Below, piece by piece: positions 52,082-53,626 of a stretch of DNA of 64,000 nt (positions are counted from its first letter, which is position 1; the number at the start of each line of letters is the position of its first letter). The position numbers and the translations under genes are program-made. A model generated the notes under the pieces. The model was not told where the DNA came from. It saw only the letters and a list, made by a program, of their open reading frames with translations, and did not search any database. This DNA comes from an uncultured Mollicutes bacterium (GTDB lineage Bacteria > Bacillota_I > Bacilli_A > Acholeplasmatales > Anaeroplasmataceae), in the NCBI GenBank assembly GCA_945923475.1, contig CAMELE010000001.1:99875-163874 (forward strand), written 5' to 3'.

Positions 52082-52342
52082 TTAATCAAACCAATTATTT
52101 AATTCAAGATTTCCTCTAACTAATCTTTGGCATTGGACCATAGGAGCAGATTGATCAGATGTCCATATGAGTGCCATACAATTAGGATTACACGACATCA
52201 GGTCAATTCTACCACTAGGAGAAGTATATGTTCTAAATGGGCATTTCTTTTTATGTACAATATCCGTTATATTTGATGGAGGAGTATATAAACTTTGCTC
52301 CAATTCAATTGTAGAATCTTGAATATCCATGTTATTCTCCAA
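52082..52342 (-). CDS. Cys-rich small protein (86 aa)
   Basis: ORF, last gene of the Thg1-like operon. Confidence 0.3.
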   Translation of the reverse strand: MENNMDIQDSTIELEQSLYTPPSNITDIVHKKKCPFRTYTSPSGRIDLMSCNPNCMALIWTSDQSAPMVQCQRLVRGNLELNNWFD

Positions 52343-53171
52343 TATAAATCAATTTATCAATATATTGCCTGCCGTCTCCCTTAAAAATCGGAATATCCAG
52401 ATCAATCATCCAAATGGACTTAGGATAAACTCCATCTTTAATATCGACGTTAGGATTTTGAATAGTAGTTTTAATACAACAACTACCACGCTTTAGATAA
52501 GTAGGATAATCATTCCAATTAATACCCTTTTCGGCAAACAACATCTCTTGAATCATATTACAACTCTTATTTTGGAGTTCTTTGTGAGAAAAATTAGCTT
52601 GACCTACCATTTGAATAGAGTTTCGTGTAGCATCAAGTTGTCTCCAATAGATAAGATTACATACTTCTTCTTTTGGAATATTAAATACTCTAGCGTCAAA
52701 CATAGCACCTTTTAAAACGGCATTATTGTATACTCTAAACTGATTAATCGCATCTTCATTAGACTGATTTTCATATCCCCATTTACGTACTTCACTGTCA
52801 AATGCTTTATTAAATGCCATAGTTGCCATAGAAGCGGAAATGCTACACATTTTCTGAACTTCATAATCAAACCAAGCACAACTATTCAAGTTTTGATAAT
52901 CTACAAGAATAAGAGTAATTTCATCGCTCTGTGTATAACCAAGAACACATCCCTGAATATTCTCACAGAGGTATTTCATTGTATCCTGCATAGACTTTAC
53001 CAGAATTTCATCAAACGGCTTCTGAAATCCTCTCGTAAAAGTGTGAAAAGCCTTCCCATCAATTCTGATAGTGACAGGCATTCTTCGAACTAATCGAGTT
53101 TTAGGAACTTCTTCATAAAACTCTTTCATTCTCATTCCAAGTTCATCATTAACTGGCATAATAACCTCCAT
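52332..53171 (-). CDS. Thg1-like protein (tRNA-His guanylyltransferase family, 3-prime-to-5-prime polymerase)
   Basis: VTIRIDGKAFHTF...FQKPFD...GYTQSDEITLIL, FDARVFNIP...IYWRQLD and ...INWNDYPTYLKRGS align with Thg1/TLP conserved blocks. Confidence 0.7.
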   Translation of the reverse strand: MEVIMPVNDELGMRMKEFYEEVPKTRLVRRMPVTIRIDGKAFHTFTRGFQKPFDEILVKSMQDTMKYLCENIQGCVLGYTQSDEITLILVDYQNLNSCAWFDYEVQKMCSISASMATMAFNKAFDSEVRKWGYENQSNEDAINQFRVYNNAVLKGAMFDARVFNIPKEEVCNLIYWRQLDATRNSIQMVGQANFSHKELQNKSCNMIQEMLFAEKGINWNDYPTYLKRGSCCIKTTIQNPNVDIKDGVYPKSIWMIDLDIPIFKGDGRQYIDKLIYIGE

Positions 53172-53626
53172 TAGGTGAGCATTTCGGCAATTACCTGACT
53201 TACAATCTTCATATCTGCTTTATCCTTAAACTCTGCAGATGCGAGTTTCATAATAGCTCCCTTATTTTTCTTATCAGGAGTAAGACCTGATTCATGAATA
53301 AGAACAGAAGCCTTATTCTTAATAACTTCTTTATCCGTAATCATCTGAGGAGCGAACTCTTTAACAATACTCATTTCTGCTTCATACTCGGCCTTTTTCT
53401 CTGTATGACTAGCAGGGCAAGTATCAATAGACTCCTGGAGATTTTTCTGATATTTAATTAGCGTCTGATTGCATAGATCATCAGTAATTTCAATTCTGCC
53501 CTTATTTGTGATAGATGCTTTTTGAATAGCATCTATCATATTAGAAAGAGCATTTTTACGCATTCGATCGGTTTCGCCATTTTTCATGGCAATAACTCGC
53601 TCACTTTTGAGTTTTTCAAAAATCAT
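53171..53626 (-). CDS. GatB/YqeY-domain protein
   Basis: The 151-aa sequence matches YqeY domain architecture (...AMK...KGAIMKLASAEFKDKAD...). Translationally coupled to the Thg1-like gene. Confidence 0.55.
   Translation of the reverse strand: MIFEKLKSERVIAMKNGETDRMRKNALSNMIDAIQKASITNKGRIEITDDLCNQTLIKYQKNLQESIDTCPASHTEKKAEYEAEMSIVKEFAPQMITDKEVIKNKASVLIHESGLTPDKKNKGAIMKLASAEFKDKADMKIVSQVIAEMLT

What the first reader, a model, noticed from the sequence alone, without database searches (positions are those of the whole stretch)
52082..53626. Phage-encoded Thg1-like 3-prime-to-5-prime polymerase in an operon with a YqeY/GatB-domain protein
ORF 52332..53171 has the Thg1/TLP catalytic blocks (RIDGKAFHTF, QSDEITLIL, YWRQLD). 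Bacterial and archaeal TLPs repair 5-prime-truncated tRNAs. The upstream overlapping gene is a GatB/YqeY domain, a module implicated in tRNA binding. A TLP plus tRNA-binding partner in a phage suggests a tRNA 5-prime-end repair or editing function, possibly countering host tRNA-cleaving defences or maturing phage tRNAs. This module appears rarely described in phages.
Basis: partly seen in the sequence, partly recalled or inferred. Interest (0 to 1): 0.8.

Follow-up and report, generated by a model that had tools for sequence, protein, structure and literature searches.

The report
Phage Thg1-like reverse polymerase with YqeY
A large gut phage carries a well-conserved Thg1-like 3'-to-5' RNA polymerase co-transcribed with a YqeY protein and a tiny cysteine-rich protein inside an RNA-repair gene island; the enzyme is a normal member of a family already known in phages, and YqeY is not a general partner of it.

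Summary
On the minus strand lie YqeY (53171-53626), a Thg1-like protein (TLP; 52332-53159, 275 aa) and a conserved 82-aa Cys4 ORF (52082-52330), followed by a strong terminator. The TLP passes Pfam Thg1 (E=8e-30), matches the Bacillus thuringiensis TLP structure over nearly its full length (E=1.4e-58), and keeps every catalytic and nucleotide-binding residue tested. It has the TLP-type motif, not the eukaryotic Thg1 HINNLYN. The operon sits in an island with an RNA ligase, an RlaP-like nucleotidyltransferase, a macro domain, metallophosphoesterases and a P-loop kinase. That context for Thg1 family genes was already published (2010, 2021). Phage TLPs are not rare: 164 GenBank phage records and a dedicated PHROG.

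The YqeY pairing is confined to one lineage. No window-type YqeY was found within the flanks fetched (5-10 kb) in 76 of 80 viral and 77 of 80 cellular TLP loci. Some relatives have YqeY without a TLP, often between NAD-salvage genes. The only biochemical test found showed that a free YqeY domain does not bind tRNA.

Most likely this is a 5'-end RNA or tRNA repair enzyme in a counter-defence island, with YqeY an unproven accessory. It is a new member of a known kind, of moderate-to-low interest. In passing: this phage reads TAG as a sense codon.

The parts
53171..53626 (-). YqeY-family protein, 151 aa (first gene of the tight three-gene block)
   Evidence: Pfam PF09424 E=3e-14, full profile. 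PHROG 1460 E=2.5e-20. Family profile matches PDB YqeY 8XJG at 9e-25 and 1NG6 at 1e-17. Independent gene callers give 151 aa. dN/dS 0.10 against L085.
52332..53159 (-). Thg1-like protein (TLP), a 3'-5' nucleotidyltransferase of 275 aa. The longest ORF extends to 53171, but the real start is the ATG at 53159 behind a GGAGG site.
   Evidence: PF04446 E=8e-30. PHROG 4717 E=1.6e-87. BtTLP 4KGK E=1.4e-58. Catalytic residues conserved. An identical 275-aa protein, P0121, is in the database. dN/dS 0.06.
52082..52330 (-). Conserved 82-aa cysteine-rich protein (C30, C47, C51, C67), function unknown. Its ATG lies 1 nt after the TLP stop codon.
   Evidence: Sequence read directly. 30 homologues, 29 of them 82 aa; C30, C51 and C67 are invariant and C47 is nearly so. 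No Pfam, PHROG or NCBIfam hit. Only 13 clusters among 1.84 billion representatives. AlphaFold model unreliable, pLDDT 42. dN/dS 0.28.
52048..52083 (-). Intrinsic terminator ending the operon: a 16-bp perfect stem followed by a run of U
   Evidence: Terminator scan. RNA fold -24.7 kcal/mol, z=-6.5, with 0 of 200 shuffles folding as well.
53643..54102 (-). Possible upstream members of the same transcription unit: an unknown 117-aa ORF (53749-54102) and a 30-aa ORF (53643-53735)
   Evidence: Gene calls in identical contigs. No terminator-like site on this strand between 54200 and 52083. No family hits. A 32%-identical homologue lies between the RNA ligase and Thg1 in L106. Membership is uncertain.
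54200..54235 (-). Terminator-like hairpin after the HslV-like gene, marking the upstream limit of the transcription unit
   Evidence: Terminator scan.
55784..57172 (-). Context: putative RNA ligase (N-terminal OB fold plus nucleotidyltransferase, DRB0094-like)
   Evidence: PHROG 968 E=5e-63. Pfam RNA_ligase and PHA02142 OB domain are below cut-off. TIGR02306 E=9e-9, below cut-off. 47% identical to annotated RNA ligases of Bacillus phages.
59686..60492 (-). Context: RlaP-like (Pol-beta superfamily) nucleotidyltransferase, a family named for an RNA repair pathway
   Evidence: Pfam PF10127 RlaP E=2e-4, just below cut-off. Conserved beside the RNA ligase and metallophosphatase in relatives.
48545..49590 (-). 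Context: Metallophos_2 phosphoesterase (48545-49105) and an AAA_33/KTI12-type P-loop kinase (49090-49479 as called). The kinase's N-terminus and P-loop lie upstream in another reading frame.
   Evidence: Pfam. Frameshift by a 7-nt insertion at CCT TAG T relative to the L086 homologue.
51274..51993 (-). Context: calcineurin-like metallophosphoesterase immediately downstream of the operon
   Evidence: Pfam PF00149 E=4.6e-9 and PHROG 246. Syntenic in relatives.
54724..55320 (-). Context: macro-domain protein
   Evidence: PHROG 335 E=1.3e-39. Pfam Macro is sub-threshold. Partial DarG-like macro hit, E=4e-11.

Best explanation
The locus is a three-gene operon, YqeY, TLP and an 82-aa Cys4 protein, ending at a strong terminator. 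It belongs to a roughly 190-kb gut phage that probably infects Clostridia and that reads TAG as a sense codon.

The central enzyme is a bacterial-type Thg1-like protein. Inferred from its close homology to BtTLP, it activates a 5'-monophosphate RNA end with ATP or GTP. It then adds nucleotides in the 3'-to-5' direction, using the opposite strand of the tRNA acceptor stem as template, and so rebuilds 5'-truncated tRNAs (or similar structured RNAs).

The operon lies in a shuffled island of RNA-end healing and sealing genes: an RNA ligase, an RlaP-like nucleotidyltransferase, metallophosphoesterases, a P-loop kinase and a macro domain. Relatives add an NAD-reconstitution cassette. The most likely role is therefore counter-defence or maintenance repair of damaged host or phage tRNA during infection.

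YqeY and the Cys4 protein are co-expressed accessories. A substrate-binding or targeting role for the TLP is possible for them but not shown.

What is shown: gene structure, family membership, intact active site, purifying selection and synteny. What is inferred: enzymatic activity, substrate, biological role and any YqeY-TLP interaction.
For: Family and active site:
- Pfam Thg1 E=8e-30.
- Nearly full-length match to the crystallised, biochemically characterised BtTLP, E=1.4e-58.
- BtTLP residues E12, R28, D30, H35, T38, K43, L49, S74, D75, E76, R131, R147 and M158 all map to identical residues (roles from PMC3701042).
- These positions are invariant across 11 diverse phage TLPs.

Operon:
- 11-nt and 1-nt intergenic spacers with Shine-Dalgarno sites.
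- Terminator at -24.7 kcal/mol, z=-6.5.
- The same three gene calls appear in independent assemblies.
- The order YqeY-TLP-small ORF is kept in L085 at 87/83/70% identity.
- dN/dS is 0.10, 0.06 and 0.28.

Repair context:
- The window has an RNA ligase, RlaP-like NTase, macro domain, three Metallophos genes and an AAA_33 kinase within 8 kb.
- The same set travels together in relatives. In six relatives Thg1 sits directly upstream of the kinase.
- This matches the published Thg1-PNK-macro-RNA ligase association (PMC2904730) and the jumbo-phage RNA-repair inventory (PMC7824862).

YqeY linkage within the lineage: Thg1 lies within 10 kb in 17 of 23 YqeY-anchored loci. It is adjacent, or separated only by a small ORF or a homing endonuclease, in about 11.
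Against: - No activity was measured, and no phage TLP study turned up in the searched library.
- In the papers I read, bacterial tRNA-directed defences cut anticodon loops or arms, the T-loop or the CCA tail. None was reported to truncate 5' ends, so the natural substrate is unknown.
- Most TLP genes in other phage lineages have no recognisable repair genes nearby. Their neighbours are mainly unknown proteins and adenylosuccinate synthetase.
- The window's own kinase gene is frameshifted, so the 5'-phosphorylation step may be missing here.
- YqeY occurs without a TLP in L094, L095, L105, Xoo-sp13 and MT837347.
- A free YqeY domain did not bind tRNA or act in trans in the one study found.
- The ligase, RlaP and macro assignments rest partly on sub-threshold Pfam or TIGR scores.
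Confidence: 0.55

Rival explanations
1. YqeY is not functionally tied to the TLP. It belongs with another module of the island, such as the NAD-reconstitution genes or the ligase/phosphoesterase module. It lies next to the TLP here only because auxiliary genes are packed and reshuffled in one region.
For: - In 13 relatives YqeY directly follows the Pribosyltran (Adps-like) gene. In 7 of those it is directly followed by NAMPT, with Thg1 either 4 kb away or absent.
- In the unrelated jumbo phage Xoo-sp13, YqeY is adjacent to NAD+ synthetase, with no Thg1 within 6 kb.
- In L095 and L105 YqeY follows the RNA ligase and there is no TLP.
- The TLP occurs beside the NAD cassette without YqeY in L121, L139, L152 and L167.
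- A free YqeY domain does not bind tRNA.
Against: - In the window and in L099-101 the NAD genes are absent or distant, yet YqeY-TLP stay adjacent with an 11-nt spacer and no terminator between them.
- Adjacency survives insertions of small ORFs and LAGLIDADG endonucleases.
- Neither NARP1 description mentions a YqeY component.
Confidence: 0.3
2. The TLP matures or edits phage-encoded tRNAs rather than repairing defence damage. Examples would be adding G-1 to a phage tRNA-His or fixing 5' acceptor-stem mismatches, as in mitochondrial tRNA 5' editing.
For: - TLPs perform tRNA 5' editing in protist mitochondria and can add G-1 (established knowledge; PMC3061083, PMC3561963 listed).
- Relatives of this lineage encode tRNA clusters (L095, L103).
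- Many TLP-bearing phages are large, tRNA-rich genomes.
Against: - ARAGORN and Rfam find no tRNA in the 64-kb window.
- 29 tRNA genes near TLP or YqeY genes in related loci showed normally paired acceptor stems on inspection, and none was tRNA-His.
- TLP genes are not clustered with tRNA genes: 51 of the 60 loci scanned have none within 10 kb.
Confidence: 0.15
3. The TLP acts on non-tRNA RNAs. It might restore or re-phosphorylate 5' ends of phage transcripts or rRNA, or produce activated (App/Gpp) 5' ends for the neighbouring ligase.
For: - The Thg1 family forms A-pp-RNA intermediates (PMC8131947).
- Anantharaman et al. raised ligation through 5'-App as a possibility.
- An RNA ligase lies 2.6 kb upstream.
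Against: - High similarity to BtTLP, whose demonstrated substrates are 5'-truncated tRNAs.
- No direct evidence for other substrates.
Confidence: 0.1

Closest known systems
Bacillus thuringiensis Thg1-like protein (BtTLP; PDB 4KGK/4KGM) and other bacterial TLPs
   Same: Nearly full-length homology (E=1.4e-58). It has the same three carboxylates (D30/D75/E76), activation-site K43/S74 and NTP-site R28/R131/E12, and the TLP-type 'WRQxDAxxNSI' segment. The expected chemistry is the same: 5' activation followed by templated 3'-5' addition.
   Different: It is phage-encoded. It carries a hypervariable 25-60-aa insertion after the palm domain (about residues 121-151) and a second variable C-terminal segment that BtTLP lacks. 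Here it is co-transcribed with YqeY and a Cys4 mini-protein.
Eukaryotic tRNA-His guanylyltransferase Thg1 (human 3OTB, Candida 3WBZ, 5XOX)
   Same: Same Pfam family and the same catalytic core.
   Different: The match is weak (E of 1e-6 to 3e-10). The HINNLYN segment of Thg1 aligns with ATRNSIQ in the phage protein. The common phage annotation 'tRNA-His guanylyltransferase' is therefore probably too specific.
Phage TLPs already annotated (PHROG 4717; e.g. Bacillus phages Bcp1 and G, Fusobacterium phage Fnu1, Staphylococcus phage PMBT8)
   Same: Same family at 42-49% identity over 94-100% of the length.
   Different: Those examined have no YqeY neighbour. They are shorter (235-250 aa) and lack the insertion.
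Thg1-PNK-macro-RNA ligase neighbourhoods (Anantharaman, Iyer and Aravind 2010) and phage RNA-repair systems of the T4 Pnkp/Rnl type
   Same: A TLP is found together with a P-loop kinase, macro domain, RNA ligase and phosphoesterases. The predicted heal-and-seal logic adds end restoration.
   Different: The phosphoesterases are calcineurin-like rather than T4 Pnkp-type. The ligase is DRB0094/OB-fold-like. The kinase is frameshifted in this genome. YqeY and the 82-aa protein are extra members not described in those papers.
Free-standing YqeY proteins (B. subtilis 1NG6; 8XJG) and the GatB/GatE tail or D. radiodurans GlnRS YqeY domain
   Same: Full-length YqeY family match, including the C-terminal 'KGKAD...' helix region.
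   Different: Cellular yqeY typically sits with rpsU (PMC13374519) and its function is uncharacterised. The tRNA-affinity role is shown only for the domain fused in cis to GlnRS. Here it is phage-encoded in a repair/NAD island.

Membership tests
Thg1/TLP 3'-5' nucleotidyltransferase superfamily (Pfam PF04446) | Significant match to the family profile above the curated threshold | tested here: met
   103.9 bits against a cut-off of 29.2, E=8e-30, profile 3-130 of 130. PHROG 4717 E=1.6e-87.
Thg1/TLP 3'-5' nucleotidyltransferase superfamily (Pfam PF04446) | Three conserved carboxylates of the two-metal active site (BtTLP D30, D75, E76; human D29, D76, E77) | tested here: met
   D38, D83 and E84 in 279-aa numbering (D34, D79, E80 in the 275-aa protein) (roles from PMC3701042). 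Invariant in 11 phage TLPs.
Thg1/TLP 3'-5' nucleotidyltransferase superfamily (Pfam PF04446) | Activation-step and nucleotidyl-transfer residues (BtTLP K43, S74; R28, R131, E12, H35) | tested here: met
   All map to identical residues.
Thg1/TLP 3'-5' nucleotidyltransferase superfamily (Pfam PF04446) | C-terminal Thg1C domain | tested here: inconclusive
   Pfam Thg1C scores 21.6 bits, below the 26.3 cut-off. However, the C-terminal half aligns to BtTLP residues 126-240 at E=4.6e-25.
Thg1/TLP 3'-5' nucleotidyltransferase superfamily (Pfam PF04446) | [quoted passage not shown] | not testable with these tools
   Needs an enzyme assay.
Bona fide tRNA-His guanylyltransferase (eukaryotic-type Thg1) | HINNLYN-type segment and close similarity to eukaryotic Thg1 | tested here: not met
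   The segment aligned to 'THINNLYN' of chain 5XOX reads 'ATRNSIQ'. E-values to Thg1 structures are 1e-6 to 3e-10, against 1e-58 for BtTLP.
YqeY family (Pfam PF09424) | Full-length profile match above threshold and similarity to solved YqeY proteins | tested here: met
   53.8 bits against a cut-off of 27, profile 2-143 of 143. 8XJG at 9e-25 and 1NG6 at 1e-17.
YqeY family (Pfam PF09424) | tRNA binding, or enhancement of a partner enzyme's tRNA affinity | not testable with these tools
   The literature shows the effect only in cis in D. radiodurans GlnRS. The free domain did not bind tRNA (PMC1865053).
   A window-type YqeY lies within 10 kb of the TLP in 4 of 80 IMG/VR loci (three directly upstream, one 1.8 kb upstream), in 0 of 4 isolates, and within 8 kb but never adjacent in 3 of 80 genome loci. 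YqeY occurs without a TLP in 6 of 23 YqeY loci. The pairing holds only within one gut-phage lineage.
Phage/bacterial RNA repair (heal-and-seal) gene sets | RNA ligase, 5'-kinase and 2',3'-phosphoesterase encoded together | tested here: inconclusive
   The ligase is supported by PHROG 968 (5e-63) but sits below the Pfam and TIGR cut-offs. An AAA_33 kinase is present but frameshifted. Several Metallophos genes have unknown specificity.

The most novel reading that the evidence does not exclude
The phage reads TAG as a sense codon (probably Gln) and its likely hosts are Clostridia. From my own knowledge, not tested here, Clostridia generally make Gln-tRNA-Gln through GatCAB. GatB uses a YqeY-like tail together with the U1-A72 first base pair to recognise tRNA-Gln. 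On that basis, the YqeY-TLP-Cys4 operon could be part of the code-change machinery. YqeY would help present a suppressor tRNA(CUA) to the host charging or transamidation enzymes. The TLP would set or restore the tRNA's 5'-terminal identity nucleotide. My evidence does not exclude this, and nothing positively supports it beyond co-occurrence in one recoded genome.
Probability: 0.05. Interest if true: 0.85.

Novelty: new member of a known kind. Interest (0 to 1): 0.35.

Why it matters
What bacterial and phage TLPs do in vivo is still unknown. In vitro they repair 5'-truncated tRNAs, but I found no report of a natural source of such damage in bacteria. An abundant, strongly conserved gut-phage TLP embedded in an RNA-repair and NAD-reconstitution island is a reasonable model for asking whether some host defence attacks tRNA 5' ends. 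The lineage-specific operon partners (YqeY and the 82-aa Cys4 protein) are cheap to test as specificity or affinity factors, and could give free-standing YqeY proteins their first function. As it stands, though, the gene is a routine annotation and the repair hypothesis was published in 2010.

Tried and rejected
- **YqeY in viral contigs.** Scanning IMG/VR with the single YqeY protein found nothing. An alignment-based scan then gave 17 loci.
- **Divergent YqeY next to TLPs.** I looked for this in other lineages with a custom HMM on six-frame ORFs and with Pfam on the flanking ORFs. None was found.
- **82-aa protein structure.** The AlphaFold2 model had pLDDT 42 and pTM 0.24, so no fold search was run. 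The exhaustive profile search gave only 13 small-protein clusters and no informative relative.
- **RNA ligase in PDB.** A sequence search found no hit.
- **tRNAs and structured RNAs.** ARAGORN and Rfam found none in the window.
- **tRNA 5' anomalies.** tRNA genes in related loci showed no acceptor-stem anomalies and there was no tRNA-His.
- **TAG recoding versus YqeY or TLP.** I tried to correlate TAG recoding with YqeY or TLP presence using ORF-coverage gain in 20-kb loci. The signal is too noisy locally and showed no clear association.
- **Promoters.** Promoter-like sites are no more frequent than in shuffles, so they carry no weight.
- **NCBIfam.** No model matched the TLP, YqeY or the small ORF at E<=1e-3.
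- **Closely related annotated genome.** None exists in the phage collection. The best DnaE hit is 39% (SPbeta-like Bacillus phages) and the best RNA ligase hit 47%.
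Full report
**1. What is there**

The region 52082-53626 holds three consecutive minus-strand ORFs.

- ORF 53171-53626 (151 aa) is a YqeY-family protein. It hits Pfam PF09424 at E=3e-14 over the full profile and PHROG 1460. A family profile matches solved YqeY proteins 8XJG (9e-25) and 1NG6 (1e-17).
- ORF 52332-53171 is a Thg1-family protein. It hits Pfam PF04446 at E=8e-30 and PHROG 4717 at E=1.6e-87.
- Reading the DNA shows a GGAGG site just before the second ATG at 53159. 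Relatives align from residue 5, and an identical 275-aa protein is recorded on 12 contigs of up to 194 kb. The true gene is therefore 52332-53159, and the 'overlap' with YqeY is really an 11-nt spacer.
- One base after its TAA begins a third gene, 52082-52330 (82 aa). It has 30 database homologues, 29 of them 82 aa. Cys30, Cys51 and Cys67 are invariant and Cys47 is nearly so. It has no family assignment.
- A 16-bp perfect hairpin plus U-run follows at once (52083-52048; -24.7 kcal/mol, z=-6.5).
- A second terminator-like hairpin at 54235-54200 bounds the unit upstream. An unknown 117-aa ORF and a 30-aa ORF may therefore be co-transcribed.
- Against the closest relative (L085; 87/83/70% identity, same gene order), dN/dS is 0.10, 0.06 and 0.28, so all three are real, constrained genes.

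**2. Which kind of Thg1**

- The best solved relative is the Bacillus thuringiensis Thg1-like protein 4KGK (E=1.4e-58, nearly full length). Next comes an archaeal TLP (6.6e-13), and eukaryotic Thg1 enzymes reach only 1e-6 to 3e-10.
- I mapped the residues described for BtTLP (PMC3701042). These are the metal carboxylates D30/D75, the third carboxylate E76, activation residues K43/S74, NTP-site R28/R131/E12, and H35, T38, L49, R147 and M158. Every one is identical in the phage protein, and they are invariant in 11 diverse phage TLPs.
- Where a solved Thg1 has 'THINNLYN', the phage protein has 'ATRNSIQ', like BtTLP's 'ASKNSIS'.
- It is thus a bacterial-type TLP, not a tRNA-His-specific Thg1.
- Compared with BtTLP and the Bacillus and Staphylococcus phage TLPs, the gut-phage proteins carry a hypervariable 25-60-aa insertion after the palm domain and a second variable C-terminal patch.

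**3. How common, and is it already known?**

- tblastn finds the TLP in 164 GenBank phage records, from Bacillus, Prevotella, Caulobacter, Mycobacterium, Fusobacterium and other phages. Most are already annotated as tRNA-His guanylyltransferase.
- Anantharaman, Iyer and Aravind (2010) linked bacterial Thg1 genes to a polynucleotide-kinase-type P-loop kinase, macro domains and RNA ligase. They proposed RNA/tRNA repair and noted Thg1 in large DNA viruses.
- Iyer et al. (2021) listed Thg1 among jumbo-phage RNA-repair enzymes.
- I found no experimental study of a phage TLP.
- So 'rarely described in phages' does not hold for the gene or for the repair hypothesis. It does hold for experimental work.

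**4. The surroundings**

Within 8 kb on the same strand the window encodes:
- an RlaP-like nucleotidyltransferase (59686-60492) and a Metallophos protein (58710-59492);
- an HNH homing endonuclease and a putative RNA ligase (55784-57172; PHROG 968 at 5e-63, DRB0094-like, below Pfam/TIGR cut-offs);
- a macro-domain protein and an HslV-like protein;
- then the operon itself;
- another Metallophos protein (51274-51993), several small ORFs and an HNH ORF;
- an AAA_33/KTI12-type kinase, a Metallophos_2 protein and a Band_7 protein.

Relatives recovered through YqeY carry the same set in shuffled order. Most add an NAD cassette of isochorismatase, Pribosyltran, NAMPT, a macro homologue, NAD synthase and NADAR. 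That cassette resembles the Prs-like + Nampt-like NARP1 operon. In six relatives Thg1 lies directly upstream of the kinase, as in the 2010 bacterial neighbourhoods. This context supports an RNA-repair, counter-defence role for the TLP in this lineage.

**5. Is YqeY a partner of the TLP?**

From the TLP side the answer is no.
- Four isolated phages have no YqeY neighbour.
- Only 4 of the 80 best IMG/VR TLP loci have a window-type YqeY within 10 kb, by both tblastn and a custom HMM. It is directly upstream in three and 1.8 kb upstream in one.
- Only 3 of 80 TLP loci from cellular genome assemblies have YqeY within 8 kb, and none adjacent.
- The commonest TLP neighbours elsewhere are unknown proteins, adenylosuccinate synthetase and a Metallophos protein.

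From the YqeY side the link is moderate.
- Of 23 YqeY loci, 17 have a TLP within 10 kb.
- About 11 have it adjacent, or separated only by a small ORF, an HNH-like ORF or a LAGLIDADG endonuclease.
- In 13, YqeY directly follows the Pribosyltran gene.
- In 7, NAMPT rather than Thg1 follows YqeY.
- L094, L095 and L105, the jumbo phage Xoo-sp13 (YqeY beside NAD+ synthetase) and MT837347 have YqeY without a TLP in the flanks fetched.

Biochemically, the YqeY domain of D. radiodurans GlnRS raises tRNA-Gln affinity only in cis. [quoted passage not shown] Free-standing YqeY is still described as not well characterised. In this phage YqeY is clearly co-expressed with the TLP, but a dedicated YqeY-TLP module is not supported as a general entity. 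The alternative, that YqeY serves another part of the island, remains open.

**6. Mechanism proposed**

Shown: an intact TLP active site, co-transcription with YqeY and a Cys4 mini-protein, purifying selection, and residence in an RNA-end-processing island.

Inferred:
- The TLP activates a 5'-phosphate RNA end with ATP or GTP and rebuilds missing 5' nucleotides, using the 3' strand of the acceptor stem as template.
- The kinase would supply 5'-phosphate from 5'-OH ends.
- The phosphoesterases would clear 2',3'-cyclic or 3'-phosphate ends.
- The RlaP-like enzyme and the ligase would restore and seal other breaks.

Weak points:
- The bacterial tRNA-directed defences described in the papers I read cut anticodon loops or arms, the T-loop or the CCA tail. 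None is reported to cut 5' ends.
- The window's kinase is frameshifted.
- No tRNA gene lies in the 64-kb window.
- tRNAs near TLP or YqeY genes in related loci have ordinary acceptor stems, and none is tRNA-His.

**7. Host and genome**

The nearest TLPs in cellular assemblies are almost all gut Clostridia: Lachnospiraceae, Ruminococcus, Roseburia, Blautia, Coprococcus, Dysosmobacter and Flavonifractor. They include cultured isolates at 57-62% identity. The nearest DnaE and RNA ligase homologues are in Bacillus phages. Identical or near-identical contigs reach 190-194 kb.

**8. An unexpected feature: TAG recoding**

The phage reads TAG as a sense codon.
- Treating TAG as sense raises the bases covered by ORFs of at least 150 codons from 36.5 to 50.5 kb. 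Treating TGA as sense gives only 39.7 kb.
- NrdD becomes a 762-aa ORF with five TAGs, running through to its glycyl-radical motif.
- A RecJ-like exonuclease with eight TAGs matches its PHROG end to end at E=7e-153 when TAG is read as Gln.
- The endolysin has nine TAGs, and some gene callers called it as one gene.
- The YqeY-TLP-Cys4 operon has no in-frame TAG. The L085 copy of the small ORF has one.
- Published surveys of recoded phages mention neither Thg1 nor YqeY. They note that the charging of suppressor tRNAs is unexplained.
- A link between this tRNA-related operon and code change is therefore conceivable. A crude per-locus recoding score showed no association with YqeY. I rate the link at about 5%.

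**9. Verdict**

The TLP identity and the repair context are solid but already known in kind. The YqeY partnership is lineage-restricted and mechanistically unproven. This is a new member of a known kind, interest about 0.35.

Noticed in passing
whole window; e.g. 12275-14560(-), 22922-24688(-), 43318-44691(-), 39701-40489(-), 283-1989(+): TAG is used as a sense codon, probably Gln. NrdD has 5 TAGs, RecJ-like exonuclease 8, endolysin 9, and GIY-YIG endonucleases and putative structural genes also carry them; all become full-length only when TAG is read through. With TAG as sense, ORF coverage rises from 36.5 to 50.5 kb. No suppressor tRNA, release factor or aaRS lies in the 64 kb.
   Followed up: yes
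window 49480-49590(-), upstream of ORF 49090-49479: The AAA_33/KTI12-type kinase is split. 'MNTRKNLWIMSGIP' then TAG is in one frame, and the P-loop 'GSGKST...' is in the +1 frame, because of a 7-nt insertion (TAGTCTC) relative to L086. The same 129-aa truncated call appears in independent assemblies. It is either a pseudogene or a +1 frameshift site at the recoded stop (CCT TAG T).
   Followed up: partly
L085, L086, L088, L093, L094, L096-98, L102-104, L107, L108 (around the YqeY gene); L090 5220-6438: In relatives, YqeY sits between a Pribosyltran (Adps-like) gene and a NAMPT (Namat-like) gene, interrupting what is an adjacent two-gene NARP1 operon in the literature. In the unrelated jumbo phage Xoo-sp13, YqeY is next to NAD+ synthetase. 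This may be a YqeY-NAD metabolism association that the NARP1 paper I checked does not mention.
   Followed up: partly
L121, L139, L152, L167 (Clostridia assemblies): TLP genes lie directly beside an Isochorismatase-Pribosyltran-NAMPT-Macro-NadE cassette without any YqeY. The TLP and the NAD-reconstitution genes therefore co-localise repeatedly across lineages.
   Followed up: no
window 52706-52798(-), TLP residues ~121-151 of 275; alignment A2: A hypervariable insertion of 25-60 aa, differing in length and sequence even among TLPs that are 66-87% identical elsewhere. It is absent from BtTLP and from the Bacillus and Staphylococcus phage TLPs. A second variable patch lies near residues 231-247. 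It could be a specificity or arms-race surface.
   Followed up: partly
L088 8793-10409; L089; L107 3510-5800; L108 10707-11900: A LAGLIDADG homing endonuclease is inserted between YqeY and Thg1. In these loci the Thg1 reading frame appears as two pieces (a short N-terminal ORF plus the rest), suggesting a frameshift, an intron or an in-frame TAG.
   Followed up: no
window 57180-57776(-), 49610-49996(-), 38445-39188(-), 39701-40489(-), 32090-33109(-): There are many homing endonuclease genes: two HNH, two GIY-YIG, and a GIY-YIG domain at the C-terminus of a coiled-coil protein. Copies of the HNH type (p198) recur at several positions in related loci.
   Followed up: partly
window 62127-63929(-) and 46858-48243(-): A protein with major-vault-protein shoulder and repeat domains (828 aa in full-length relatives) and a 461-aa SPFH/Band_7 (flotillin-like) protein flank the repair island. 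Both are conserved in relatives.
   Followed up: no
window 54724-55320(-): The macro-domain protein has a short but significant match to the DarG antitoxin macro domain (NF048014, E=4e-11, 40 residues). In relatives its homologue sits between NAMPT and NAD synthase. It may be an ADP-ribose-processing or anti-DarT function.
   Followed up: no
window 53654-53683: A 13-bp inverted repeat lies between the 30-aa ORF and the YqeY start, with no U-run on the coding strand. It may be an RNA processing or regulatory hairpin in the operon leader.
   Followed up: no
L006, L007, L011, L015, L017, L018, L020, L022, L024 and others, about 315 nt upstream of Thg1: Many unrelated TLP loci share a ~124-aa upstream ORF (no Pfam hit) followed by a gap of about 315 nt with no ORF of 45 aa or more before Thg1. 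The gap was not examined for small ORFs or RNA elements.
   Followed up: no
L012, L041, L043, L056, L063, L068: tRNA-Gln(UUG) is the most recurrent tRNA gene within 10 kb of TLP genes, present in 6 of the 9 loci that have any tRNA. All show the usual U1-A72 pair.
   Followed up: partly
L085 3326-3328: The closest relative's copy of the 82-aa ORF has an in-frame TAG (Y-K-TAG-K-C) where the window has a Lys codon. The gene caller read through it, consistent with recoding in that genome too.
   Followed up: partly
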